Assembly: GCA_937899865.1 (NCBI GenBank)
Contig: CALBRH010000054.1
Coordinates: forward strand, 1-64,000
Length of the DNA: 64,000 nt
From: an uncultured euryarchaeote
GTDB taxonomy: Archaea > Thermoplasmatota > Poseidoniia > Poseidoniales > Poseidoniaceae
Reading direction: 5' to 3'
Position numbers and translations under genes: made by a program. How positions within the stretch are numbered: the stretch's first letter is position 1; each line of letters opens with the position of its first letter. The notes below the pieces were generated by a model. That model did not search any database. It worked only from the letters and a program-made list of their open reading frames with translations, and was not told the DNA's origin. Shown here piece after piece: positions 32,283-51,557 of this stretch.

Positions 32283-33251
32283 TTATTCCTCTAGTCGAGA
32301 AATCAAGTCTGCTTTCTTACCGGATACTGGTTTCCCAGCAGCCTTTAGAAGTTCCTTTAACTCTGCAACAGTCATACTACTATAATCAACTGCTTCAGCC
32401 TCAGAAACCTCTTCTGCGGCTTCTGCTGCTGACTCTTCGACTGCAGGAGCATCTTCCTCAGCATCTTGCTTTTCTGATTCAGGCTCCATCGCTTCTGCTG
32501 CATCTAGAATGGAAGGAGAATCTTCTTCGGTATCTTCTTCCATTGCTGCTTCGAGAGCTGCTGCTTTCTTTGCTTTCAATTCTGCAGCAACACGCTTTTC
32601 TTCAGCATGAATCTCATCAAGTGTTGGTCCTTTCTCAGTGACTACACCTGATTGAAGAAGTTGACTCTTTCTAATTGCGACTGACTTGATTGGATAAATT
32701 GGCTTGACTGCTTTTCTAATATCCTCTTCTAATTCGCCACCTAAAATTGACTCTTGAAGTTTAGAATAAGTGTTCTTAGCTGCATAACCAAGTAGTAATT
32801 CTCTAGTCTTTGAGCGCATTACTTGTTTTACTGATGTTTGAACTCTCTTTTGAGTGATAATTAATGGCTTTAGCCTTACAAGATATCCATCAGTAGTCAC
32901 AACATCAACAACATCATCTATCTTACCGCGGTAACGACGAATTTGTCTTCGGGTATGATCTGTTTGATGGTGGTGGCCGATGAAGGTAGTCAAAGCATCT
33001 TGCCCGACACACTCATGCACTCTAAATCTCAAAATTACATGCATCTTGGTGAAATCGCCATTGAATTCCTGCAAAGTCATTTCATAAACTCTGCCAACAA
33101 TAGATTCGTCAGACTCTCCCAAAGTTTCTCCGATGTTCTTGAAGTCCCATGGATGTCGTGGCGCACGTATTGTGTACCATCGCTTCATCTTCCACTTGTC
33201 ACGCTGCTTACGTGCTAACGCACGCCCTTTTGCACTCACTTTCTTTGCCAT
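32283..33251 (-). CDS. rps3ae: 30S ribosomal protein eS1 (S3Ae) with acidic linker and C-terminal SAP-like domain
   Basis: DKWKMKRWYTIRAP, GRVYE, IYPIK; tail YSSMTVAELKELLKAAGKPVSGKKADLISRL. Confidence 0.93.
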   Translation of the reverse strand: MAKKVSAKGRALARKQRDKWKMKRWYTIRAPRHPWDFKNIGETLGESDESIVGRVYEMTLQEFNGDFTKMHVILRFRVHECVGQDALTTFIGHHHQTDHTRRQIRRYRGKIDDVVDVVTTDGYLVRLKPLIITQKRVQTSVKQVMRSKTRELLLGYAAKNTYSKLQESILGGELEEDIRKAVKPIYPIKSVAIRKSQLLQSGVVTEKGPTLDEIHAEEKRVAAELKAKKAAALEAAMEEDTEEDSPSILDAAEAMEPESEKQDAEEDAPAVEESAAEAAEEVSEAEAVDYSSMTVAELKELLKAAGKPVSGKKADLISRLEE

Positions 33252-33263
33252 CGATATCAACTC

Positions 33264-36294: not shown

Positions 36295-37299
36295 TTATCT
36301 TCGTCTTGTTGCGTTAATATCGATTCTTCGCATGTTCTTTTTCTTTTCAGATTTCTTTGACTTGCCTTTACTGACGAAATCTTCTCTACTTAAGCCACCA
36401 AATGTGATGCTGCCATTAGAAAGCAATGACTGTGCTAATTCATCTGCAACCTTCTCAGACTGTGCACCTGTTTGCATTTCTTGAGCGACTGCTGCATTGT
36501 GGTCGGTCAGCCAAGACTTTCTCTCTTCCCTTACTGATTTCAATTCATCTCTGGCCTTGTTAACATCAACCATCAATTCATCTATTTTGGCATGAACTTC
36601 ATTGGCTTTTTCCTTTAGTTCAACAAATTCTATATGGAATCTGTCGCCTTCCGACTTTAGGAAATCACGATGAGCAAATGCTTCATCTACTTCTGGAGTT
36701 TTAGCGTTGAGTCGCTCAACAGCTTGTATCATCTCATTATGGGCAGCATCTGCTTCAACCTTAAGAGTCTTAATAGCTGCGTCAATATCTGACATATCAA
36801 CCTCAACCATCTTGAATTTGGTTACTTCCGGTTCCAACTCTTCGATTCGCTTCGAAAATTCTTTGATTTTCTTAACCATTTCCTTTTCTTTATTTATACC
36901 AACTGAAGTTGTCTCAAATTTCTTCTCTAGTGAATCAACTTGTTGTTTCAAGTCAGCATATTCTGCAGTTGCAGAACGCTTGTTATTGTGATCTTTTCTC
37001 TTTCCCTTAATCTGAGAAATCAAATCTCTCATTTGGCTTTGAATTGTATTACGCTTTTCCTTGAAAGATTTAATCTCGGCTCGCATTGCTCTAACTTCAG
37101 TAACTAATAATTCGATTTTTACACGGTGCTCTTTGTATTGGCCTTGTACTGAATTTCTTTTCTCAGCAGAAACTTTTGCTTGAGCATTGAAATTGTTTCT
37201 TGTTTCACGCATCTTACGAACTTTAGTTTCCATTGCATGTAGTCTTTCACGTAAGTCTGCATCTGGCCTCTCATCGCCCTCATTCAGTCTACCGCGCAT
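36295..37299 (-). CDS. Archaeal coiled-coil protein (COG1340-like)
   Basis: Long heptad repeats with KRN/RD spacing and a central LEKKFETTSVGINKEKEMVKKIKE motif. Confidence 0.75.
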   Translation of the reverse strand: MRGRLNEGDERPDADLRERLHAMETKVRKMRETRNNFNAQAKVSAEKRNSVQGQYKEHRVKIELLVTEVRAMRAEIKSFKEKRNTIQSQMRDLISQIKGKRKDHNNKRSATAEYADLKQQVDSLEKKFETTSVGINKEKEMVKKIKEFSKRIEELEPEVTKFKMVEVDMSDIDAAIKTLKVEADAAHNEMIQAVERLNAKTPEVDEAFAHRDFLKSEGDRFHIEFVELKEKANEVHAKIDELMVDVNKARDELKSVREERKSWLTDHNAAVAQEMQTGAQSEKVADELAQSLLSNGSITFGGLSREDFVSKGKSKKSEKKKNMRRIDINATRRR

Positions 37300-39678: not shown

Positions 39679-42174
39679 TTAACCATCTTTTGACTTAAAA
39701 ATCATCTTACATGAGGGGCATCTAACTGAGCCATCGTATGATTCTGGGATTCTGAGACTTTGAGAACATTCTGGGCATGAAATCTCAACCTTTCCATCAT
39801 TAATATCCTCTATTAACTCCTCTTCTTCTTGAACTTCTTCCTCATCTATATCTTCTGAACCCACTTCGAAACTATGTGAACAATCAGGACATCTCACAGA
39901 ACCTTGATAGTTTTCAGGAACTCGAAGTTGTCTGGAACAAACTGGACAACTGATTTCAATCTTAACATCGGATAATTGAACAGACTCATTTTTGCGAGTT
40001 TTAACCTCTGACTTTGGCTTCTTTGGCTGTCTATTTGAATTCTCACGAATTCGAATCATCAAAATAATTAGAGAAGATACTGCTAATCCTCCCAATATTC
40101 CTGACCAAGGAATAGTAAAACTATCAGATGATTCCTCTGTGACAATTGATGAGAGGAAGATATTATCGATTTGCAGTGTATCACCACCATAATCCCACTT
40201 ACAATTTAGTCTAACTTCATCTCCTTCTGGCCAAGCAAAACTAAAGGAAATTGTTTTAGATGACCCTGCAGCAATCGGTGTTGTGCTTGATTCTGCAAGT
40301 TTAAATCCATCTCTATCATAAAGAATAATTGTTCCACTTTCACCTGTAATAGAGCCTTGATTTTCCAACAACACTGTCACACTAGCTGTTTCACCTGCTA
40401 CAGGACGGTTTGGATTCGATTGTGAATTGAAGCTGATTGTGTATTGAGGCCTATCTTGAGGTATAGATTTAGTAAATGAGGAGAATGAAGATTCTGATGT
40501 CCAATTTATCTCTTGAACTCTAATTATTACATACTCCGCATCTACAAAACCAAAATTGAATGTATCGCCTGAAGAACCTGCACTAATTGTCATGTCAACA
40601 TCATAAACAATCGTATCATCTAAGTTACTACCATATCCCAATTTCACATTTATCTCCCGATCTATACCTGATGATAGATTAACCAGCCAATTGGCTGTCA
40701 CTCCATCATCAATAGTCCATGAAACATCATATAATGACAGTTCAAAACTTTGCCTTTCCGAGACAGGAAGTAATATCTCACCAGATATATCATCAGCAAT
40801 TTCACCATCAGTTGAATATAGTGACCAATTAAACTGTTCCGTACCAGAAACTAATATTGGAACAGTAATCGTAACTTCACCGGCCTCATCTGGCCCTAAT
40901 GACACCATACTGCCTTGATAATTTCCTGCAGAGGATTCCATTTTTAGTGAAACATTACCTTGCTTTGTACCGGTATTTCTTACTAACAACGAGAATGTTG
41001 ATTCATCCCCTACATGCCATGGCCCATCAGTTGTTGAAGGCGTAAAACTACCCGCATACTCGAATAATGCCGATTCGACAGTAAATGTCTCCGTTGAAGT
41101 ATTAATCGATGATGGGTCAATTCTTTGACCTGACAAGTAACATACTAATTCACCAGGCTTCAAAATAATAGTAAAGTCTACATTTGTATTCGAAGATGAT
41201 TGAACAATTATTGCTGAATTATAAACAATTTCTTGATCGAATAAACAGGTCTTTTCACCTGAAAAATCAACAGTACCATTATTGTAAGTTTGTACTGTAA
41301 TCTCTAAATTTTCGCCAGAAACTAAATTCTGACCATCATAAACTATTGAAGTTTCTAAAATTGGTAGTGGTGGAGGATTAACACTAGCAGTGAAATTTTG
41401 AAAGTTATCTGTAATGTAATCATCTATGGTCCCATTTAGGCTTATCGATATCGAAAAGAAGCCCTCAAAAACTTGTACTGTTGAATTAAAATATACGATT
41501 TTTGTTGACATTCCATTGAGGTCAAATACCGCTGAAGATTGCTGTTCTGAGGTAATTCCGTTATCTAAAGATAAATTTACGCTTCCAGTCCAAAGATAAT
41601 CTCCGCTATTGATTATGGGAATTTGAAGCTGAACAAAATCTCCATCACTTAAGGAATAATTACCAGTTAATACAGAATTAGAATCAATCGATTCTAAGAT
41701 AATTGATGATTCTGGTGCTATTGAAATATTTAGCGGATTCAATCTATGAATCGTTCTTTGAAAATTCGAAATATCGTTTTGTGATTCAATACCTACATCA
41801 CCTGTCAAGCCGACTGAAATTATTGTGTAGCCATAATTCAATGATGTGAAATTATACGAAATCTCTTGTTGCACTCCCTCGACTAAATCATAAGATATGC
41901 TTGAGTTGATTAGTACGGTTCCATCTATGGCTGAGGCTTCAAAATAAACCTGCCCAACATAATTTACTCCAAGCCCTTCATCGGTTGAAGAAAGGTTAAA
42001 TTCTAATTCGAAATATGATTCATCGGTAGTTTGAAAGTCAACCAGGTTAATAGATTCTGATTCAATAGTAACTCCACCTCCACTTGCAGATGCTATAGGA
42101 GCATTAAATAGAAATAAAAAAGTCACAAAAATAGCAAAAAATGTAACATAATTCCTGTTACAATCACCCGCCAT
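39679..42174 (-). CDS. Surface protein with CARDB/Ig-like domains, TM anchor and two cytoplasmic zinc ribbons
   Basis: Signal peptide; VRNTG and LENQG CARDB-like motifs; TM; CPVC..CPDC and CPEC..CPSC repeats. Confidence 0.75.
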   Translation of the reverse strand: MAGDCNRNYVTFFAIFVTFLFLFNAPIASASGGGVTIESESINLVDFQTTDESYFELEFNLSSTDEGLGVNYVGQVYFEASAIDGTVLINSSISYDLVEGVQQEISYNFTSLNYGYTIISVGLTGDVGIESQNDISNFQRTIHRLNPLNISIAPESSIILESIDSNSVLTGNYSLSDGDFVQLQIPIINSGDYLWTGSVNLSLDNGITSEQQSSAVFDLNGMSTKIVYFNSTVQVFEGFFSISISLNGTIDDYITDNFQNFTASVNPPPLPILETSIVYDGQNLVSGENLEITVQTYNNGTVDFSGEKTCLFDQEIVYNSAIIVQSSSNTNVDFTIILKPGELVCYLSGQRIDPSSINTSTETFTVESALFEYAGSFTPSTTDGPWHVGDESTFSLLVRNTGTKQGNVSLKMESSAGNYQGSMVSLGPDEAGEVTITVPILVSGTEQFNWSLYSTDGEIADDISGEILLPVSERQSFELSLYDVSWTIDDGVTANWLVNLSSGIDREINVKLGYGSNLDDTIVYDVDMTISAGSSGDTFNFGFVDAEYVIIRVQEINWTSESSFSSFTKSIPQDRPQYTISFNSQSNPNRPVAGETASVTVLLENQGSITGESGTIILYDRDGFKLAESSTTPIAAGSSKTISFSFAWPEGDEVRLNCKWDYGGDTLQIDNIFLSSIVTEESSDSFTIPWSGILGGLAVSSLIILMIRIRENSNRQPKKPKSEVKTRKNESVQLSDVKIEISCPVCSRQLRVPENYQGSVRCPDCSHSFEVGSEDIDEEEVQEEEELIEDINDGKVEISCPECSQSLRIPESYDGSVRCPSCKMIFKSKDG

Positions 42175-42263
42175 ATAACTCTCAATTCGTTATGGTTATT
42201 GACCTTCACGCAAAACCATCCCCCTGCGCCATGTTTTTCAACATTGAATTTCACCCGCCGTAT

Positions 42264-42953
42264 ATGACACCCGAGGACTTACTACGTGTTGAGCCAGAAG
42301 TCCTTGCAAAATTAATTCTCCACAAACGAGAAAGAATTTCACAATCACTACCAAAAATCATCGAATCATTAGGGGAAGAAAAGCACACTGCGGAGAATTT
42401 AGCACGAAAATCAAGAGCTGAAAAAGAAGACTTAGAGCCGAAGGTGAGTAACCTATACTATGAGCGAGCAAAGGTTGTTGCAGAACTCAATGACAAATTT
42501 GACACAATTAAATTTGAAAATGATGAAAAAGATAGGTTTGATGAAATTTCTGAAAAACTTAAGTCAAAACAAACGAGTGTTGAAAATTTTAATAAAATTC
42601 TTTCTGAAATCGTAGAACTTTGTTCAAAATATGGTGGAAAGATTGAGCAATTAACCTCATATAAATCTTCAATGAAGGCTAATGATGCATTATCCGAAAT
42701 AATTGATGATTTTGAAAATGCCAAAAACAGATGGAATGAAAATGAATCTAACAGACGCAGATTAGAATCAAAATTCACCAAACTATCTACGAATCTAAGA
42801 GATTCAAGTACCTCCAAAGATTATTGGCAAGATAAGTTGAATTCAGATTTTGAAGATTTATTGATTGATGCCAAACGTGTTGCTGAAGGAGGGCTTTCTA
42901 GTAGACAGCTGTCCCGTAACAATAAAGGTAAAAATAACTCAAGGAGGCCTTAA
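42264..42953 (+). CDS. Coiled-coil protein
   Basis: Heptad-rich ORF; likely start MTPEDLL; stop lies 1 nt before the proposed start of the nucleotidyltransferase. Confidence 0.7.
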   Translation: MTPEDLLRVEPEVLAKLILHKRERISQSLPKIIESLGEEKHTAENLARKSRAEKEDLEPKVSNLYYERAKVVAELNDKFDTIKFENDEKDRFDEISEKLKSKQTSVENFNKILSEIVELCSKYGGKIEQLTSYKSSMKANDALSEIIDDFENAKNRWNENESNRRRLESKFTKLSTNLRDSSTSKDYWQDKLNSDFEDLLIDAKRVAEGGLSSRQLSRNNKGKNNSRRP

Positions 42954-42954
42954 C

Positions 42955-45024
42955 TTGTTAGCAGATTTTGAACAATCAAATATTGATTTAAAATATCTAG
43001 TAAATTATGGATATGTGATAAAAGCAATCAAAGGTGATGAACTATTTAGCGAGACAAAAATAAGTTCTGATTACATCTCTAAACTTGAAAGCCAATTAAC
43101 TCTATTTGTCGAATCACAAAAAATTACCAAACCTCTAATTCAGCGAAGAAATGGTATCATCAAACACCTAAGGAAAATTTTGACAAACAAATTCATCAAT
43201 TCAAAACTATCCTCTTTTGGCTCCTTCGAGTCAGGGTTAAGCCTATCAAACGGTGATATCGATTTATGCTTAGAATTCAATGGAGAGTCCCCAAAGAAGG
43301 TTCTGAATAAAATCGCTAGAATGTTAAATCAAGATAGTATGAAAAATGTGAAATTAATCACTAATGCCAAAGTCCCAATTGTAAAATTTATTGATAGTCA
43401 ATCGATGATTCCTGTAGACATATCAGTGAATAACAATTTATCAGTTTACAATACAGAACTACTTCGAAGATATTGCGATGTCGATCCAAGGGTAAAACCA
43501 TTCATTCTAGCGATCAAGTATTGGGCTAGAAACAGAGGGATATGTGAACCAACATCTGGAACATTCTCATCTTATGCATGGACACTAATCGCGATAAATG
43601 CGCTGCAAACCATGCAAGAACCAGTAATACCTAACCTATGCACTAGAGATGGAACTAATGTTGTTGAGATTGATGGTCAAAATTATGATGTCTCTATGCA
43701 AGATGTTTCTAATTCTAAATTTATCTCGAAAAATAATGAAACTGTAGCCGAACTAATAATATCATTTTTCTCGAATTTAGCCACCAATTGGCCATGGGAT
43801 GATTTTGTTATTTCTGTTCGAGAAGGTGCACTTATTACAAGAAAGCAGAAAGGTTGGAATCATCAAAAACCCAAAATTAGCAATGCTATACAAGATAAAA
43901 AAATAATGCGTCTTGGTAAACACTCCCTTCCTGTAGAAGACCCATTTGATGAGATTCATGACTTGAGTATTGTTTTAGATGCTGAAGGAGTGTTTGAAAT
44001 TAGAGATGAAGTTTTACGTGCATATTCTTTGTTGCATGAATATAATAATTGGGAAACGATATGTGAAGTAAAATACCCTGAGTTAATTCCTGAATCACCT
44101 CAATTAGACCTTTTTGGCGACCTAAGAAATTTGTCAGAATCTGAAATTAAGACGGATTTGGAAAACTTATATTCTCAATTGAATATAGTAGAGAAAAGTG
44201 TATCTATTCGTGAAAGTGAGAGAAATGATGCAATAAGAATGTCAAAGGCTTTGAGAAGAAATGCTGAGTTAGCAAAAGAACAATCTGTACTATCATCTGA
44301 ATTAAGACCAAGAAGATCGCAAATCGATGAAGCTCAAAGTAAGCGAGATTCAAGTAACAATAACTACATACCCGTACATTTAATTGAGGATGAGTTACAC
44401 CGAACATATCACAACTTAACTAAGCAATCTGAAACTGGTATTGAATTATCATTTGAAAAAGAGAAGGCCTTATTTTCTTGGTTTTTTGAATTACAAAGCA
44501 TGCATGAACATGCTAAGATAACAAGAAAACACCATCGAGAATTTTTGCGATTGGTCAATCAACAAGAAAACGCAATTAATCATATTAAGGACATAAAGCA
44601 TGAAATCATCGATGTCAAAAATTTAGGGAATTTTAGAGACTTTGATGATTTAGCAAAAAGATTGCTTATTGAATTAAATCCTTTGAAGAAAGAACGGCGA
44701 AAACTCCGTCGTGAAGTTGGTCGATTAGAAGCATGGCTGAGAAAACAAAAACATACACCAAATAAGCAACAACATAAAAATCGAAAATCTCGAACTACGA
44801 GAAGAAAAAATGATACGAATGTTAAAGAAATCAAAAATAAAGTTATTTCTGGTGATTCCTTTTCCCTGCAAGACCTCGATTTATTACTGAAAAGTGGTGG
44901 GCTAAAATCTGTCAATAATCAATCTGATAATAATAAAAAAAGTAATAATCAAAAGACCAAGAAAAATAAACCTACTTTGCAACCACATAGAGGGAAAAGA
45001 GGCAAATCATCTAAAAATATTTGA
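42955..45024 (+). CDS. Cid1/TUT-family non-canonical terminal nucleotidyltransferase (predicted TUTase) fused to a COG1340-like coiled coil
   Basis: FGSFESGLSLSNGDIDLC, AKVPIVK, VDISVNN, YNTELL..Y...DPRVKP, IKYWAR, GTFSSYAWTL, KGW, VEDPFDEIHD. Proposed TTG start at 42955 follows AGGAGG; the ORF track opens at 42865. Confidence 0.85.
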   Translation: MLADFEQSNIDLKYLVNYGYVIKAIKGDELFSETKISSDYISKLESQLTLFVESQKITKPLIQRRNGIIKHLRKILTNKFINSKLSSFGSFESGLSLSNGDIDLCLEFNGESPKKVLNKIARMLNQDSMKNVKLITNAKVPIVKFIDSQSMIPVDISVNNNLSVYNTELLRRYCDVDPRVKPFILAIKYWARNRGICEPTSGTFSSYAWTLIAINALQTMQEPVIPNLCTRDGTNVVEIDGQNYDVSMQDVSNSKFISKNNETVAELIISFFSNLATNWPWDDFVISVREGALITRKQKGWNHQKPKISNAIQDKKIMRLGKHSLPVEDPFDEIHDLSIVLDAEGVFEIRDEVLRAYSLLHEYNNWETICEVKYPELIPESPQLDLFGDLRNLSESEIKTDLENLYSQLNIVEKSVSIRESERNDAIRMSKALRRNAELAKEQSVLSSELRPRRSQIDEAQSKRDSSNNNYIPVHLIEDELHRTYHNLTKQSETGIELSFEKEKALFSWFFELQSMHEHAKITRKHHREFLRLVNQQENAINHIKDIKHEIIDVKNLGNFRDFDDLAKRLLIELNPLKKERRKLRREVGRLEAWLRKQKHTPNKQQHKNRKSRTTRRKNDTNVKEIKNKVISGDSFSLQDLDLLLKSGGLKSVNNQSDNNKKSNNQKTKKNKPTLQPHRGKRGKSSKNI

Positions 45025-45078: not shown

Positions 45079-45513
45079 ATGCCAAAAAGCTGGCAATCAA
45101 AAATTACTGAATTATTCATATCTGAAACTGGTGAAAGTTATACAGAAAATACATTTAGAATGCTAAGTATACCCGAATGGTTTGGAAATAAAATCCTCAT
45201 AGACACTAGTCTCTATCCACTGCCAGAATCACTAATGGGAGTAATGTGGTCTAAGCCTTTATTGGAAAATCGGATTCGTATAGTAGCTTTAGTCATCGAT
45301 AAAAAAGTCCAAAATAATTCTCATGGGACAATGATACTTGATGATATAATTGGACACTCAAAATCTGAAGGTAAAATAATGATTCAGTTAGAAGTTCGTA
45401 AATCAAATATTAAGGCTCAAAAATTCTATTCTCGTCACGGCTTGAAAATAGAAAAGACACTTAAAAATTATTATTCAAACGAAGATGGATTTCTTATGGT
45501 AGGAAATCTTTGA
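45079..45513 (+). CDS. GNAT N-acetyltransferase (RimI-like C-terminal half)
   Basis: LEVRKSNIKAQKFY...NYYSNEDGFLM. Confidence 0.8.
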   Translation: MPKSWQSKITELFISETGESYTENTFRMLSIPEWFGNKILIDTSLYPLPESLMGVMWSKPLLENRIRIVALVIDKKVQNNSHGTMILDDIIGHSKSEGKIMIQLEVRKSNIKAQKFYSRHGLKIEKTLKNYYSNEDGFLMVGNL

Positions 45514-45553: not shown

Positions 45554-45886
45554 ATGGAAGAGTTTGTAGTCTCCGACTTAATTGATTCAAGTTACATCCT
45601 CAGTGCTGCAATACTTGATGATCAAGGATTCGTTATCTCTTCAAAGCCTAATGATAGTAAAACCAAAGAGCAACTATCGAAGTTTGCTGAAATACTCTAC
45701 TCATCTGAAGATTATGACCAGACATCAATAATTACTGAAGAACGAATTATAATTATTCACAAATTGGTAAAAGATTTCACATTAGTCGTAGGATGTGAGA
45801 CAAATTCTAATTTAGGATTGTTAAGGAATGAAATTTCTAGCGCAGTATCTCGATTAAACACTTACTTCGATTCAACATCTCGTTAA
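45554..45886 (+). CDS. Roadblock/LC7- or profilin-like protein
   Basis: AAILDDQGFVISS...IIIHKL...LVVG...NLGLLR pattern, 110 aa. Confidence 0.6.
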   Translation: MEEFVVSDLIDSSYILSAAILDDQGFVISSKPNDSKTKEQLSKFAEILYSSEDYDQTSIITEERIIIIHKLVKDFTLVVGCETNSNLGLLRNEISSAVSRLNTYFDSTSR

Positions 45887-45991: not shown

Positions 45992-46861
45992 ATGAGCGAA
46001 ATTAATCAAGTTCTTGAGCAAAAAAAGAATATGGTAAATGAAAAAGCAACTAAATTCCGTGAGACACGAGACGAGTGGAACAAGAAATCCAAAACTCATT
46101 CTGCAGCAAGAAATGAATTAAATGCTGAAGTCAAAGAACTGATCGTTCAAGTTAGAGAGCAGAGAGAAATTAGAGAACAAATGAATGAAATGGTTCGTGA
46201 AAAGAAAGTTATTCGTCAAGAAGCAAATAAGAAAGTCAAAGAAATTAAATCTCGTATGGATTCATCAAGAGGCCCTGTAGAGCAAGATAATTCACGCGGT
46301 AAACGTGGCCAGAGACCTATTACTTCTCATCAACTCAGAAAAGAACTTGAAAGATTGGAAAGAGAATTCGAACAAGGTAGACACACCGGTAAGAATGAAA
46401 AGAAAGTTATGAAAAGAATGAAGGAAATAAGTTCCAAACTAAAACAAATGACTTCTATTGATGATAGTAATGAAGACATGAAAGGTCTTCGAGAAGAATT
46501 AAAAATTGCTCTTGCAGAACAAGAGGATGCTCATGAAGAAGTACAAACTGCTGCAAATGCTGCTCAAGAAGCACATGAATTAATGCTACAGTGGAACAAA
46601 GAAGTTGACAAGCAACGAGAAAAGGCGGAATCATGCCATAGAGAGTTACGCAAATCCAAGAAAGAAGCTGACAAAGCACATCACTTGTACATTGTATCTT
46701 TACGCTGCTTGCACTCAATACAAGACATGTCCGCTGCAATGTCTGGTAATGATGTAGAAGAAGGCGGTTCTAAGGCAAGAGTTGAGGTACAAGATTTGAT
46801 GACTAAATTGATGTCTGGAGATACTCTTTCTACTGAAGAATTGATGCAATTGCAAAAATAG
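45992..46861 (+). CDS. Archaeal coiled-coil protein (COG1340-like)
   Basis: RDEWN..RNELN..REQMN repeats, LRKELERLEREFE, C-terminal KLMSGDTLSTEELMQLQK; AGGTGAG RBS. Confidence 0.8.
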   Translation: MSEINQVLEQKKNMVNEKATKFRETRDEWNKKSKTHSAARNELNAEVKELIVQVREQREIREQMNEMVREKKVIRQEANKKVKEIKSRMDSSRGPVEQDNSRGKRGQRPITSHQLRKELERLEREFEQGRHTGKNEKKVMKRMKEISSKLKQMTSIDDSNEDMKGLREELKIALAEQEDAHEEVQTAANAAQEAHELMLQWNKEVDKQREKAESCHRELRKSKKEADKAHHLYIVSLRCLHSIQDMSAAMSGNDVEEGGSKARVEVQDLMTKLMSGDTLSTEELMQLQK

Positions 46862-48104: not shown

Positions 48105-51100
48105 CTAACCCATAAATCCAGGGAAATACTGCTGTGTATATGCTACAGCGTGTTCATGTGGATAGCCTTGGTTGACTAGATTTTGGTAATACTCTCTCGC
48201 TGGATCTGCTTGAGCTACTGGTTGCTGAGGATAACTTTGGTTTTGTGCAACAGCAGCATAATTATGTTGTTGTACTGGTTGTTGTTGAACCATTGGATAG
48301 TTTTGCTGACCCATTTGATTCATCTGCATTGTATTGTATTGCTTATTGGAGTTTCGACCTCGCAAGAAAAATAGAGAACCAATTATTATCAAAATTAGAA
48401 CTCCGCCACCAGCAATTGCAATTGTCCCAAATGACGAACCATCTGCACTTGGAGGTGGACCCCATCTTGTTGGATCATCTGGATAACCATCTGCACCATC
48501 AGAGTAACCCCAATTATCATCTTTGTTTGAATGTCCATCACCATCACTATCATAGCAACCAAATCGGTCAACTGTTGAATTTCCAATAACACTTGAACAG
48601 GCATCAGCACCCATCGAAATGTTCCAATTTGCGGTTGGATCAGAATATCCATCAGAATCAAAATCAGAGCATCCCAATCTATCAATTGTTGAATCACCTG
48701 CAACATCTATACAATCATCTGATATTGGAGTTCCAGGATTATCTCCATATCCATCGCCATCGGAATCCGCCCATTGTGAAGAATCATTGGGAAATACATC
48801 TCCACCACTATATTTAGTCCAAAATTCATCAATATTTGAATAACCATCTCCATCAGAGTCAATGCAACCATTTCGATCTTGATTTGAATTACCTGCAATA
48901 TTTGGACAATAATCGCCATTGAATCCGTCCAAATTATCCCCAAAACCATCGCCATCAGAATCTAACCATTGGCTAGCTTCTTGAACAAAACCATCCATAT
49001 TATCATACCAGCCATCACCATCAAAGTCTGGACAACCGTAAACACCTTGCTGATTTGATGAACCTGCTTGGAATGGACATGCATCCTGCTCATTGAGATT
49101 AATTGACTCAACATATTCTCCTGGCCAATTTTCCGGCCTATCTAACCATGTCGAATTCCCCCAATTATCACCTAATCCATCGCCATCAAAATCTGACCAC
49201 TGAAGGGGATTTTGTGGGAATGCATCAGCACCATTTCCTGAATCCCAAAAATTATCGGGATCGGAATATCCATCCTCATCATAGTCATAACATCCTTGTC
49301 TATCAAATATCGAATCTCCTGATGTGTCAATACAATCATCTGCATTAACGCCTTCTTGATTATCACCAAAACCATCTCCATCCGAATCTAACCATTGTGA
49401 TGGTTCGAAATCGAATGCGTCATCGACATTTGCCCAGCCATCACCATCATTATCTAAACATCCAATTTTCCCATTAGCAGATGAATTACCGAATTGTAAA
49501 GGGCATGTATCGGTATCATCAGACCAAGTATCTCCATCTGAATCAGCACATCCTTGTTCACCTTGAGTTGAAGTCCCGTAATAGGTTGGACAGTCATCAA
49601 ATGAATCATCAAATGCATCGCCATCATCATTCAAGTCTTCATCACTATCTCGGCAACCATCACCATCCATATCTGTAATAGAATCTGAAATCCATGTTGG
49701 TCTTGGTGGATTATAGGATGTTCTTGGACAATTGTCATTCACATCAAGGATACCATCATTATCATCATCATTATCTTCCGGATGATTATCCTTACATCCA
49801 TCATTATCCCAATCAGTTGAATTAGATGGATTATTGAAATCTCTTGTACTAGTCCATCCAGTTTGACTATTTCGAGGGCAATTGTCTGGAAAGTTGTCTG
49901 TGATTCCATCGTTGTCATCATCAGAATCACATGCATCCCCTTCAGAATCTAAATCAGTATTCTCTTGACCAGGATTTGGAGTATTTGGACAGTTATCATC
50001 TTCATCAGCAACACCGTCACTATCAGCATCTAATACAGCAATAGTTGTTGTTAGCCAAATATAAGGTACCAAAACTGATGTGCTTTGACTTGGAGCGTTT
50101 GAACTTCCAAAATCAATAGTGCTATTGTAATTACCTGCTACCAATAATGCCCCATTAGGCATCAATGCAATGTCAGAAAGTTGATCATTTGTTGAACTAC
50201 CAGCATCAAATAATGCAACTTCATTACCATTTGAATTAAATGTTACAACTACCGAATCATTGAATCCCCGAGTAGAAAATGATTGACTACCGAATGACAG
50301 AGAGCTTTGAGATGAAAGCCCAAGTATAGTGTACCCTGTTGCTTCATCATATTGAACAGCAGAACCAGTATCATAACTTGAACCTCCTACTGATTTGGCC
50401 CATTGCCAAGCACCATTAGAACTCATACTTGCAACAAATGCATCATCTTCTCCTGCACTATTCAATTGGGTGCCAATTGTAACACTACCCGAAAATGAAC
50501 CAGACATGTACAAATTGTTTTGACTATCTACATCAATACCGGTAACCAATGAATTACCACTTCCAGATGTTGCATATGCTGATTGCCAGATGCCCGATGA
50601 ACTAATTTTGGCTAGGCCAATTGGAACTTCGTTTATCCCTGCATTAGCAGTTACACTACCAAATGTCATACTGACCTCAAAAGTAGTGGAAATCCAAACA
50701 TTGTTACTATTATCTGCAACCATACTATTGACTACCTGAAAACCTTGACCTCTAGCATCATCAATCCATTCACTGAAACCTGAATTGGAATATTTGGCAA
50801 CAAATATTTCTGCATCATTCAAATCTAATTGATTACCATTTATTCCATCACCACTATTACCTGCATCTGTATTGCCAAGGAAAAAGCCACCTATAGTTAC
50901 TGCATTATTTGAATCTGTAGTGATTGAAGTACTTTGAATCCAATCAATAGAAGTAACTAATGTCCCATCATAATCACCATTACCCCGTAAAGCCTCAGCC
51001 CAGACCCATTGGCCATTAGATGAGAGTTTTGCTACCCATGTGTCAAAATACCCAGTAGATGTTAAGGAAATACTGCCAAATGAAATTGACTCATAGAATC

Positions 51101-51557
51101 TACCTGTTGCAAAAATATCGCCATTAGGTGCGACTGAAATATCAGCAATATCTACCTCGGCAAAACTTGAAGTCCCGGTAACCGTAACTTTTTGTATCCA
51201 TTGCCAATTTCCATTAGCATCGCCTTTTGCTATCCATGGTTCTATATTTTGACTTGAAGTAATACTCTGTGATCCCAAAGACATTGTTGTTGAACCACTC
51301 ATTATTCCAGCAACTATAACTTCATTGTTATTTGAACTTTCAACTGAGGTTAATACAACAGGGTTTGCAGCACTAACCGAAGAAGACCAATCATTGGAGT
51401 TTTTTGATACAAAATAATCGATTGATGAATTACTATCATCGAGTATTGAAGATTCTTCTAAGTCTCTATTGTCCATTACTGAGTGAAAACTCATTGTTAA
51501 AAGAGTAAAAATCGTAAGAATAATTGCCACTGAATTAATCAATTTCGTAGTACTCAT
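48105..51557 (-). CDS. Surface protein: beta-propeller-like N-terminus, thrombospondin type-3 Ca-binding repeats, TM anchor, Gln-rich tail
   Basis: Repeated WIAK/WVAK..G.WQW units; many DxDxDG..D..DxCP units; C-terminal TM and QQPVQQH tail. Confidence 0.82.
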   Translation of the reverse strand: MSTTKLINSVAIILTIFTLLTMSFHSVMDNRDLEESSILDDSNSSIDYFVSKNSNDWSSSVSAANPVVLTSVESSNNNEVIVAGIMSGSTTMSLGSQSITSSQNIEPWIAKGDANGNWQWIQKVTVTGTSSFAEVDIADISVAPNGDIFATGRFYESISFGSISLTSTGYFDTWVAKLSSNGQWVWAEALRGNGDYDGTLVTSIDWIQSTSITTDSNNAVTIGGFFLGNTDAGNSGDGINGNQLDLNDAEIFVAKYSNSGFSEWIDDARGQGFQVVNSMVADNSNNVWISTTFEVSMTFGSVTANAGINEVPIGLAKISSSGIWQSAYATSGSGNSLVTGIDVDSQNNLYMSGSFSGSVTIGTQLNSAGEDDAFVASMSSNGAWQWAKSVGGSSYDTGSAVQYDEATGYTILGLSSQSSLSFGSQSFSTRGFNDSVVVTFNSNGNEVALFDAGSSTNDQLSDIALMPNGALLVAGNYNSTIDFGSSNAPSQSTSVLVPYIWLTTTIAVLDADSDGVADEDDNCPNTPNPGQENTDLDSEGDACDSDDDNDGITDNFPDNCPRNSQTGWTSTRDFNNPSNSTDWDNDGCKDNHPEDNDDDNDGILDVNDNCPRTSYNPPRPTWISDSITDMDGDGCRDSDEDLNDDGDAFDDSFDDCPTYYGTSTQGEQGCADSDGDTWSDDTDTCPLQFGNSSANGKIGCLDNDGDGWANVDDAFDFEPSQWLDSDGDGFGDNQEGVNADDCIDTSGDSIFDRQGCYDYDEDGYSDPDNFWDSGNGADAFPQNPLQWSDFDGDGLGDNWGNSTWLDRPENWPGEYVESINLNEQDACPFQAGSSNQQGVYGCPDFDGDGWYDNMDGFVQEASQWLDSDGDGFGDNLDGFNGDYCPNIAGNSNQDRNGCIDSDGDGYSNIDEFWTKYSGGDVFPNDSSQWADSDGDGYGDNPGTPISDDCIDVAGDSTIDRLGCSDFDSDGYSDPTANWNISMGADACSSVIGNSTVDRFGCYDSDGDGHSNKDDNWGYSDGADGYPDDPTRWGPPPSADGSSFGTIAIAGGGVLILIIIGSLFFLRGRNSNKQYNTMQMNQMGQQNYPMVQQQPVQQHNYAAVAQNQSYPQQPVAQADPAREYYQNLVNQGYPHEHAVAYTQQYFPGFMG
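48500..50040 (-). repeat. Protein-level thrombospondin type-3 repeat array
   Basis: About 20 degenerate D-x-D-x-D-G units, e.g. DADSDGVADEDDNCP, DSDGDGFGDN; boundaries approximate. Confidence 0.8.

What the first reader, a model, noticed from the sequence alone, without database searches (positions are those of the whole stretch)
44040..45024. The nucleotidyltransferase is fused to an archaeal coiled-coil domain and a basic tail
The C-terminal third is helical. It contains IEDELHRTYHNLTKQSETGIELSFEKEKALF and KVISGDSFSLQDLDLLLK, which resemble LRKELERLEREFEQG...EKKVM and KLMSGDTLSTEELMQLQK in 45992-46861. It ends in a Lys/Arg-rich tail (KKNKPTLQPHRGKRGKSSK). Inference: a eukaryote-like catalytic core has been joined to a native archaeal scaffold that may supply oligomerisation or substrate targeting in place of the zinc knuckles of TUT4/7. 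The fusion also argues against contamination.
Basis: partly seen in the sequence, partly recalled or inferred. Interest (0 to 1): 0.7.

Follow-up and report, generated by a model that had tools for sequence, protein, structure and literature searches.

The report
RNA-tailing enzyme fused to archaeal coiled coil
In this marine archaeon, a eukaryote-type RNA U-tailing enzyme has been fused to the front of a resident, strongly basic helical protein that every relative carries at the same locus, which gives a first functional lead for a widespread, unstudied archaeal coiled-coil family.

Summary
One 689-aa gene (42955-45024, TTG start) encodes an intact Cid1/TUT-type nucleotidyltransferase (aa 1-375) followed by a 314-aa helical module. 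The module has pI 9.95 and net charge +20, with a basic linker and a disordered Lys/Arg tail.

- **Native origin.** The C-module is the ortholog of a standalone 320-340 aa protein found throughout the order at the same locus. The transferase domain occurs only in this fusion and only in part of one family (31 of 81 genomes; 0 of 41 in the two other families).
- **Relation to DUF7121/COG1340.** The module is not a Pfam DUF7121 member, and pairwise or narrow-profile comparisons fail. Broad profiles give hhalign probabilities of 92-96% (scores 54-66, against at most 34 for reversed or shuffled controls). Bridging sequences, matching helix topology and a feature search agree, so it is a diverged paralogue.
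- **New here.** The gene directly upstream (42264-42953) is a fourth paralogue, always adjacent. A complex prediction docks it on the module's most conserved motif (score 0.66; best control 0.25).

RNA targeting by the module is inferred and has not been tested. The scan has met this fusion before in other Marine Group II genomes. I found no published report.

The parts
42264..42953 (+). Upstream paralogue (229 aa from the invariant Met; the ORF as listed starts at 42192). It is a fast-evolving COG1340-like coiled-coil protein and the predicted docking partner of the C-module.
   Evidence: It lies directly upstream of the module in fused and standalone loci. Met25 is invariant. hhalign against DUF7121 gives 93.6%. 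Complex prediction.
42943..42947 (+). GGAGG ribosome-binding site, 8 nt before the TTG start. The upstream stop is TAA at 42951-42953.
   Evidence: Sequence read.
42955..45024 (+). The whole fusion gene: 689 aa, TTG start.
42955..44079 (+). Cid1/TUT-type nucleotidyltransferase module (aa 1-375). Key codons are the GS motif, Asp at 43255 and 43261, the third Asp at 43417, and the His aligned with the UTP-selecting His at 43957.
   Evidence: PF22600 at 9.7e-30 and PF03828 at 1.2e-9. Best solved relatives are TUT7 (3.3e-49), URT1 (3e-47) and Cid1 (6e-35). Motif alignment.
44080..44136 (+). Junction with the acidic DLFxDL motif. This motif is the conserved N-terminal landmark of the standalone proteins.
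   Evidence: Alignment A4. Standalone proteins begin with a short basic stretch followed by this motif.
44137..44355 (+). Long helix 1 of the module (module residues 20-92).
   Evidence: AF2 model, pLDDT 84-95. It corresponds to helix 2-96 of the DUF7121 model.
44374..44511 (+). Short 16-residue helix, loop and start of the second long helix (44386-44511 = module residues 103-144). This is the most conserved, non-heptad motif block (IP..I.E.L, LT, EKE, SWFFELQSM) and the predicted docking surface for the upstream paralogue.
   Evidence: Invariant columns. Conserved in standalone forms. Interface residues 103-144.
44452..44751 (+). Second long helical arm (module residues 125-224, with a break at 177-184). 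It ends in the conserved RRE.GRLEAW motif.
44752..44805 (+). Basic, mostly low-confidence linker (net +8 over aa 601-618).
   Evidence: pLDDT below 50 at module 230-244. Charge.
44806..44895 (+). Two-helix mini-domain carrying the SG(D/E)S(F/L)SL.DL..LL..GG motif, shared with the C-terminus of DUF7121 proteins.
   Evidence: Helices 243-257 and 263-271 correspond to 264-278 and 285-292 in the DUF7121 model.
44896..45024 (+). Disordered Lys/Arg-rich tail (aa 651-689 net +11) with the conserved P(H/Q)RGKRGK end, then the stop codon.
45079..45513 (+). GNAT acetyltransferase, a conserved downstream neighbour.
   Evidence: PF00583 at 1e-7. Synteny.
45554..45886 (+). Roadblock/LC7-like small protein, a conserved downstream neighbour.
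   Evidence: Weak PF03259 match in the window's copy (E 0.072). The ortholog in L007 carries the family on record. Synteny.
45992..46861 (+). Canonical DUF7121/COG1340 paralogue.
   Evidence: PF23435 at 1e-18. It is the only match over the family cut-off in this genome.
36295..37299 (-). Another diverged DUF7121-like paralogue (334 aa) with a basic tail. Of the paralogues, it is the one closest to the C-module by profile.
   Evidence: PF23435 at E 0.0012, below threshold. Found in 81 of 81 genomes of the order sample. hhalign against the module gives 95.6% over 263 columns.

Best explanation
**Shown.**
- The gene encodes a two-part protein.
- The N-terminal 375 residues are an apparently active terminal nucleotidyltransferase of the Cid1/TUT4-7/URT1 type. 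All catalytic residues are present, as is the His that these enzymes use to select UTP.
- The C-terminal 314 residues are this lineage's resident copy of a protein that is otherwise free-standing at the same locus in every sampled relative in the order.
- That protein is a long helical hairpin with a conserved non-heptad motif block, a basic linker, a small two-helix SG-motif domain and a disordered basic tail. It is a very diverged paralogue of the pan-archaeal DUF7121/COG1340 coiled-coil family.
- The transferase domain is foreign to the phylum sample.

**Probable.**
- The transferase domain was inserted once, between the upstream paralogue gene and the module's N-terminal DLFxDL motif, in an ancestor within one family.
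- It later lost its catalytic residues in some lineages and was lost altogether in others.

**Inferred mechanism.**
- The module does not act alone. Its conserved motif block docks the conserved ends of the protein encoded directly upstream, with which it is probably translationally coupled.
- The enzyme is therefore built into a pre-existing hetero-oligomeric coiled-coil assembly.
- The assembly's strongly positive surfaces (module net +20) would hold RNA or a ribonucleoprotein, presenting 3' ends to the catalytic domain.
- This would be the role that zinc knuckles, RRMs or partner proteins play for eukaryotic relatives.
For: **Architecture and catalytic residues.**

**Standalone orthologs.**
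- An exhaustive profile search found 84 hits, including many proteins of 310-350 aa that cover the whole module and match no Pfam family.
- In the order sample, the full-length profile matched 77 of 81 genomes. Only positions of about 375-686 matched in ORFs of 320-360 aa in families f2 and f3 and in part of f1.
- All 40 fetched loci held a full-length module.

**Same synteny with and without the enzyme.**

**Distribution of the enzyme.**
- PF22600 was found in 31 of 81 genomes: f1 30 of 39 plus the window's own genome, and 0 of 41 in f2 and f3. Every copy is inside this fusion.
- In 201 genomes of the phylum, the domain was found only in f1, apart from two weak partial hits.

**Relation to DUF7121.**
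- hhalign of the broad module profile gives 92.5-92.7% (E 4e-7) against the neighbour's family, and 95.6% (E 1e-8, 263 columns) against the 36295-37299 family. This is comparable to the two DUF7121-like families against each other (95.9%).
- Reversed and block-shuffled controls reach scores of at most 33.7, against 54-66 for the real comparisons.
- Proteins of about 300 aa from other families of the phylum match the module profile at 1e-14 to 1e-20. Two of the four scanned match PF23435 end to end at 7e-6 and 2e-5.
- Helix order is the same element for element in the two models.
- 27 of 30 named feature-search hits belong to the set of clusters that carries PF23435 (its recognition value was below the usual mark).

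**Partner.**
- The upstream gene is adjacent in essentially every locus examined.
- The complex prediction scored 0.66 against a best control of 0.25. That mark was reached by 58 of 80 solved complexes and 2 of 110 mismatched pairs. The counts hold only roughly here, because my own alignments were used.
- The runs agree in at least 85% of contacts, and partner pLDDT is at least 82.
- The interface falls on the most conserved residues of both families.

**Charge.**
Against: - No member of the module family reaches Pfam's DUF7121 threshold, or even E 10. Pairwise and narrow-profile comparisons are not significant. Coiled coils are prone to spurious profile matches, although the controls argue against that here.
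- The number and direction of gain and loss events are not settled. The AU test does not quite reject a tree with all fused modules in one clade (p 0.055), and the tree is unrooted.
- RNA binding by the module, enzyme activity and nucleotide preference are all untested.
- DUF7121/COG1340 has no known function. The wider cluster also holds membrane and surface proteins, so the scaffold may be a localisation device and not an RNA binder.
- The complex prediction is the model's own confidence, not a measurement. The two chains are distant paralogues, and cousins of a true partner can also pass.
Confidence: 0.75

Rival explanations
1. The likeness to DUF7121/COG1340 is convergent: heptad periodicity, shared composition and a short shared C-terminal motif. 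On this view the module is an unrelated helical family. The fusion to a native protein would still hold.
For: No Pfam DUF7121 hit for any of 22 members. BLASTP and the narrow hhalign are not significant. Foldseek finds only generic coiled coils, none at E 0.001 or better. The feature-search recognition value is below the usual mark.
Against: Broad-profile hhalign gives 92-96%, with scores nearly double the best of 42 reversed or shuffled controls. Bridging sequences match both profiles over nearly their full length. The helix order and the position of the SG turn are the same in both models.
Confidence: 0.12
2. The module is a localisation or assembly device and does not bind RNA. It would tether the enzyme to a coiled-coil scaffold near the envelope or another cell structure, with RNA recognised by the catalytic domain alone, as in Cid1.
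For: - The four paralogues bracket a conserved set of membrane and surface genes and a DtxR-type regulator.
- The most conserved block of the module is predicted to contact a protein.
- Cid1 itself works without a separate RNA-binding domain (established knowledge).
Against: - The module carries net +20, concentrated in flexible linker and tail segments, and this is conserved across most fused and standalone members. That is typical of nucleic-acid binders.
- The standalone proteins add a further basic N-terminal stretch.
- An RNA enzyme became fixed on this protein.
Confidence: 0.25
3. The fused form is the older state in the order, and the free-standing genes of the other families arose by loss of the transferase. 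This reverses the direction of events.
For: - The tree is unrooted.
- Within family f1 the enzyme appears to have been lost at least twice, and it has decayed catalytically in some lineages. Loss is therefore easy.
- The AU test is inconclusive.
Against: - No trace of the transferase was found in 41 genomes of families f2 and f3, or in 165 other genomes of the phylum sample.
- The more distant relatives of the module outside the order are free-standing proteins of about 300 aa.
- Standalone f2 and f3 modules fall on one side of the tree (support 84).
Confidence: 0.1
4. The helical half was acquired together with the enzyme from the donor, as a eukaryotic or viral accessory domain.
For: Two unrelated proteins end in a similar SG motif plus basic tail, with borderline E-values. 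One lies on a contig that looks like a giant virus.
Against: Orthologs of the whole module sit at the same locus in relatives without the enzyme. The enzyme's solved eukaryotic relatives match only residues of about 30-363.
Confidence: 0.02

Closest known systems
Eukaryotic terminal uridylyltransferases: human TUT7/TUT4 catalytic module, Arabidopsis URT1, S. pombe Cid1
   Same: Palm and PAP-associated domains, the GS motif, the Asp triad and the His aligned with the UTP-selecting His. phmmer E-values are 3e-49 (TUT7), 3e-47 (URT1) and 6e-35 (Cid1).
   Different: The host is archaeal. There are no CCHC zinc knuckles, no Lin28-interacting module and no URT1-type disordered N-terminus. Instead there is a C-terminal 314-aa helical, basic module of archaeal origin. 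Activity and substrates are unknown.
Pfam DUF7121 (PF23435) / COG1340, 'uncharacterized archaeal coiled-coil protein'
   Same: - Length of about 300 aa.
- Element order: long helix, 16-residue helix, long helix, linker, 15-residue helix, SG turn, short helix.
- The central EK-rich motif and the C-terminal SG(D/E)(S/T)LS..(D/E)L motif.
- Significant broad-profile similarity and bridging sequences.
   Different: The module does not reach the Pfam threshold. It has its own invariant motifs (DLFxDL, SWFFELQSM, RRE.GRLEAW) and adds a basic linker and tail. The canonical neighbour ends right after the SG motif. The family's function is unknown.
Non-catalytic partners that give non-canonical poly(A)/poly(U) polymerases their RNA binding (Trf4-Air2 in TRAMP, GLD-2 with GLD-3 or RNP-8)
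   Same: This is an analogy from established knowledge. A catalytic core with little RNA affinity of its own is coupled to a separate targeting module. Here the core is coupled by fusion to the module, and apparently also to a further subunit.
   Different: There is no sequence or fold relation. Those partners are zinc-knuckle or KH-type proteins bound non-covalently. RNA binding by the archaeal module has not been shown.
Helical-hairpin RNA-binding arms such as the N-terminal arm of seryl-tRNA synthetase
   Same: A long antiparallel helical hairpin. A paralogue (36295-37299) and one module relative give weak PF02403 matches (E 0.006 and 0.0007).
   Different: The matches are below threshold and probably compositional. 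This is only a lead on how such a shape could hold RNA.

Membership tests
Cid1/TUT-type non-canonical nucleotidyltransferase (PF22600 + PF03828) | Pol-beta-type palm domain scoring over the Pfam threshold | tested here: met
   PF22600 at 103.9 bits against a cut-off of 27. 109 bits in the genome search.
Cid1/TUT-type non-canonical nucleotidyltransferase (PF22600 + PF03828) | PAP-associated domain | tested here: met
   PF03828 at 38.8 bits against a cut-off of 22.6.
Cid1/TUT-type non-canonical nucleotidyltransferase (PF22600 + PF03828) | GS motif and three catalytic Asp residues | tested here: met
   FGS, then GDIDL (D101, D103) and VDIS (D155). These are conserved in most homologs and lost in P0245, P0247 and P0250.
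Cid1/TUT-type non-canonical nucleotidyltransferase (PF22600 + PF03828) | His that selects UTP (Cid1 H336 position) | tested here: met
   In EDPFDEIHD the His is residue 335, conserved in about 90% of homologs. The correspondence with Cid1 H336 rests on the motif and on recall, not on a structural superposition.
Cid1/TUT-type non-canonical nucleotidyltransferase (PF22600 + PF03828) | Template-independent addition of nucleotides to RNA 3' ends | not testable with these tools
   This needs an enzyme assay.
DUF7121 (PF23435) / COG1340 | Match to the Pfam model over the gathering score | tested here: not met
   No match at E 10 or better for any of 22 modules, and none for 10 standalone orthologs at E 0.1 or better. 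One standalone ortholog has a 'faint' hit on record.
DUF7121 (PF23435) / COG1340 | Profile-profile similarity beyond what coiled-coil composition gives | tested here: met
   hhalign gives 92.5-95.6%, scores 54-66. The two reversed and 40 shuffled templates score at most 33.7.
DUF7121 (PF23435) / COG1340 | Intermediate sequences that match both | tested here: met
   L119 and L121 proteins match the module profile at 3e-16 and 2.8e-14. They match PF23435 over positions 36-305 of 307 at 2.3e-5 and 6.8e-6, which is 24-26 bits and just under the 29-bit cut-off.
DUF7121 (PF23435) / COG1340 | Same order of secondary-structure elements and the C-terminal SG motif | tested here: met
   Models. Motif alignment.
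TUT4/7-type accessory apparatus | CCHC zinc knuckles flanking the catalytic module | tested here: not met
   No zinc-knuckle family appears among the Pfam matches. The C-terminal half holds no Cys (sequence).

The most novel reading that the evidence does not exclude
The four DUF7121-like paralogues form an archaeal RNA 3'-end handling scaffold. One family of Marine Group II archaea attached to it a eukaryote-type uridylyltransferase. The same family is also the only one in the order sample with an RNase R/Dis3-type exonuclease. Together these would create a uridylation-dependent RNA decay pathway of the eukaryotic kind in archaea.
Probability: 0.15. Interest if true: 0.85.

Novelty: new variant of a known kind. 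Interest (0 to 1): 0.6.

Why it matters
- **Uridylation outside eukaryotes.** Cid1/TUT-type RNA uridylyltransferases are described as eukaryotic enzymes. Three full-text searches found no report of one in archaea and no functional study of COG1340/DUF7121.
[quoted passage not shown] An RNA enzyme fused to one of its paralogues, at a locus where the paralogue is otherwise free-standing, is a natural experiment. It points to what the family associates with and names a concrete partner to test.
- **Ecology.** If the enzyme is active, RNA uridylation exists in one of the most abundant groups of ocean archaea.
- **Limits.** The fold and chemistry of the enzyme are ordinary, and the function of the scaffold is still inferred.

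Tried and rejected
- **Pairwise BLASTP** of the module against the three neighbouring coiled-coil proteins gave nothing significant.
- **Narrow profile comparison** (22 against 27 close sequences) aligned only the 30-column SG motif, at probability 4.8%. Against the single 334-aa paralogue the probability was 0.9%.
- **Pfam and NCBIfam** scans of the module gave only sub-threshold coiled-coil noise such as APG6_N, DUF6026 and VPS28.
- **Foldseek** of the module model against the PDB returned generic antiparallel coiled coils (Smc, RipA, SH3BP5, dynein stalk), none at E 0.001 or better.
- **Hits set aside from the exhaustive search:**
  - P0326 is a repeat protein and a false positive.
  - P0255 looks free-standing, but it starts 47 nt from a contig end and still carries the last helix of the transferase domain. 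It is probably a truncated fused gene.
- **Short transferase-only hits** are mostly fragments of the fused family. The nearest non-family relatives are at most 34% identical, so no donor was identified.
- **Ribonuclease-fusion lead.** The 1086-aa RNB frame in genome G022 is an artefact of masked bases that join a DnaJ gene to the RNB gene. I did not verify that note.
- **RNA evidence.** Two runs of one marine metatranscriptome sample hold exact contigs covering only 43490-43639 and 44076-44310. None bridges the domain boundary, and DNA carry-over cannot be excluded. This does not show transcription.
- **AU test** of a single clade of fused modules gave p 0.055, which is inconclusive.
- **RNB distribution.** It matches the enzyme at family level but not within the family. 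One genus has RNB mostly without the enzyme, and another has the enzyme mostly without RNB. This amounts to about one evolutionary event and proves nothing.
Full report
**1. What is there**

The ORF containing the finding runs from 42865 to 45024. More than 100 homologs of 686-695 aa, at 46-95% identity, start 30 codons further in. The sequence shows a TTG at 42955, one base after the upstream stop (TAA 42951-42953) and 8 nt after a GGAGG. The gene is therefore 42955-45024 and encodes 689 aa.

Pfam places a Cid1-type palm domain (PF22600, 9.7e-30) and a PAP-associated domain (PF03828, 1.2e-9) in the first 375 residues, and nothing credible in the rest. The closest solved proteins to the N-terminal half are TUT7 (3.3e-49), URT1 (3e-47), TUT4, CutA and Cid1. 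The following residues are all present:
- the GS motif
- the three catalytic Asp residues (D101, D103, D155)
- the His in EDPFDEIHD, which aligns with the UTP-selecting His

**2. The C-terminal half**

Residues 376-689 (44080-45021) are at least as well conserved as the enzyme half, with many invariant columns. These include DLF.DLR, MSKA.R, PRR, YIP, the block S-W-F-F-E-L-Q-S-M, RE.GR.E.W, the SG...SL..L..LL..GG motif and the R..R pair in the tail. That is more than a generic coiled coil would keep.

An AlphaFold2 model (mean pLDDT 77) gives this order of elements:
- a long helix (module residues 20-92)
- a 16-residue helix (99-114)
- a second long helical arm (125-224, with a break)
- a largely low-confidence linker
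- a 15-residue helix, a turn at SGDSF and a 9-residue helix
- a disordered tail

The module has pI 9.95 and net charge +20, concentrated at the end of the second arm (+7), in the linker (+8) and in the tail (+11). The enzyme half is neutral, with pI 6.6.

**3. The module is a native protein**

An exhaustive HMM search with the module alignment found 84 proteins. Besides fused forms of 666-726 aa, many proteins of 310-350 aa cover the whole module. None of them matches a Pfam family.

One of these, P0275, lies in the gene order: small coiled-coil gene, module, GNAT, Roadblock, (KaiC-like), DUF7121, PurP. This is the order seen in the window and in fused relatives at 48-50% identity.

In a sample of 81 genomes of the order:
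- The full-length profile matched 77 genomes.
- Families f2 and f3, and part of f1, matched only positions of about 375-686, in ORFs of 320-360 aa.
- All 40 loci that I fetched held a full-length module.
- The palm domain was found in 31 of 81 genomes, always inside this gene: genera g1 17/17, g3 4/4, g4 7/7, g5 1/1, g2 1/9, g6 0/1, and families f2 and f3 0/41.

In 201 genomes of the phylum, the catalytic domain was found only in that one family, apart from two weak partial hits.

Alignment A4 shows that free-standing proteins begin with a short basic stretch followed by the DLFxDL motif. That motif directly follows the enzyme in the fused forms. The whole resident protein was therefore appended to the enzyme.

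**4. History of the fusion**

In a tree of 41 modules, the f2 and f3 standalone forms fall on one side (support 84). In f1, fused and standalone forms are mixed. The one fused g2 genome is sister to five standalone g2 genomes (support 99).

One gain followed by at least two losses is the most economical reading. The tree is unrooted, however, and an AU test does not quite reject a single clade of fused modules (p 0.055).

Loss is plausible for a second reason. Three divergent fused lineages (P0245, P0247, P0250) have replaced the catalytic Asp residues, and P0072 has lost the first one, while all keep the module. The window's own enzyme is intact.

**5. Relation to DUF7121/COG1340**

The neighbour at 45992-46861 is a clear DUF7121 member (1e-18). 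The module is not: there is no hit at E 10 or better in 22 members, and pairwise and narrow-profile comparisons fail.

With a 60-sequence module profile the picture changes:
- hhalign gives 92.5% (E 4.9e-7, 141 columns) against the neighbour's family.
- It gives 95.6% (E 1.1e-8, 263 columns, nearly end to end including the tail) against the family of the 334-aa protein at 36295-37299.
- These values are as strong as those two families give against each other (95.9%).
- The tool's own run with A4 gives 92.7%.

Because coiled coils invite false matches, I reversed the templates and shuffled them in heptad blocks, 20 times each. The best control score was 33.7, against 54.4 and 66.0 for the real comparisons.

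Four further lines of evidence agree:
- Proteins of about 300 aa from other families of the phylum match the module profile at 1e-14 to 1e-20. Two of the four scanned match PF23435 over nearly its whole length at 7e-6 and 2e-5.
- A model of the neighbour has the same order of elements, down to the turn at the SG motif.
- A language-model feature search places 27 of 30 named hits in the set of clusters that carries PF23435, although its recognition value is below the usual mark.

I conclude that the module is a diverged paralogue within a DUF7121 superfamily. It is not a member of the Pfam family as defined.

**6. A fourth paralogue and a predicted complex**

The gene directly upstream has its true start at the invariant Met at 42264. 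It evolves fast but sits next to the module in essentially every locus, fused or not. Its family matches DUF7121 at 93.6% and the module family at 68.6%.

A complex prediction of the module with this protein gave these results:
- It scored 0.66 in three runs, against a best control of 0.25.
- That mark was reached by 58 of 80 solved complexes and 2 of 110 mismatched pairs. The counts hold only roughly here, because my own alignments were used.
- The runs agree in at least 85% of contacts, and partner pLDDT is at least 82.
- The confident contacts join module residues 103-144, the invariant motif block, to the partner's conserved N-terminal segment (25-49) and C-terminal segment (194-237).

This supports binding but does not demonstrate it, and distant paralogy could help such a score.

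**7. Mechanism**

Shown:
- the architecture
- the native origin of the module
- its superfamily
- the restricted distribution of the enzyme

Inferred:
- The enzyme is tethered through the module to a pre-existing assembly of coiled-coil paralogues.
- That assembly's basic, flexible segments hold RNA or an RNP and so supply substrates.

The main rival is that the scaffold only localises the enzyme. The cluster also carries membrane and surface genes.

The family with the enzyme is also the only one in the order sample with an RNB-type exonuclease: f1 35/39, f2 and f3 0/41. That exonuclease is closest to RNase R. The two traits do not co-vary within the family, so this is only a lead. The genome also has exosome RNase PH subunits.

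**8. What is known**

COG1340 is recorded only as a conserved archaeal group of unknown function (PMC1322226). My searches found no paper on an archaeal Cid1-type enzyme. Earlier notes of this scan describe the same cluster and fusion in other Marine Group II genomes. They agree with what I tested here, but they are not independent evidence.

Noticed in passing
G000 contig 62, 3424-4518 (locus L126:1054-3408, minus strand): A 785-aa RNB-domain exoribonuclease, closest to bacterial RNase R (2.5e-51) and then Dis3L2. In the order sample, RNB is found only in the family that also holds the uridylyltransferase (f1 35/39; f2 and f3 0/41). Within that family the two traits do not co-vary.
   Followed up: partly
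proteins P0245, P0247, P0250 and P0072 (fused relatives from other samples): The transferase domain has lost its catalytic Asp residues in P0245, P0247 and P0250, and the first Asp only in P0072. The helical module is kept in all four. The enzyme half appears to be expendable.
   Followed up: partly
window 42264-42953: In this genome the upstream paralogue lacks the central block (WAKEKL...LET...) that most of its family keeps. It is only 57% identical to its nearest relatives, whereas the fused gene is 72-95% identical to its own.
   Followed up: partly
window 32283-33260 (minus strand): The ribosomal protein S3Ae/S1e homolog carries a long acidic C-terminal extension that ends in a SAP-like helix-turn-helix motif (…VAELKELLKAAGKPVSGKKADLISRLEE).
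   Followed up: no
locus L125:8001-10232 (protein P0327) and protein P0321: Two unrelated proteins end in a similar segment: V(R/K)..(V/I)A.G.S…(L/V).(E/S)LL.KGG. In P0327 a basic tail follows it. P0327 has a SAP domain and lies on a contig with a large Rpb1-like RNA polymerase gene and many ORFans, possibly a giant virus. The E-values are borderline (1e-4 and 1e-3).
   Followed up: partly
window 39679-42174 (minus strand) and 48105-51557 (minus strand): Two large predicted surface proteins flank the operon and keep their positions in relatives. One has a C-terminal membrane anchor followed by two zinc-ribbon-like CxxC pairs. The other is built of thrombospondin-type-3-like Asp-rich repeats.
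   Followed up: no
genome G022, contig 1, 71500-77500 (locus L127): A run of masked bases joins a DnaJ gene and the RNB gene into one apparent 1086-aa frame. It is an artefact, not a fusion.
   Followed up: yes
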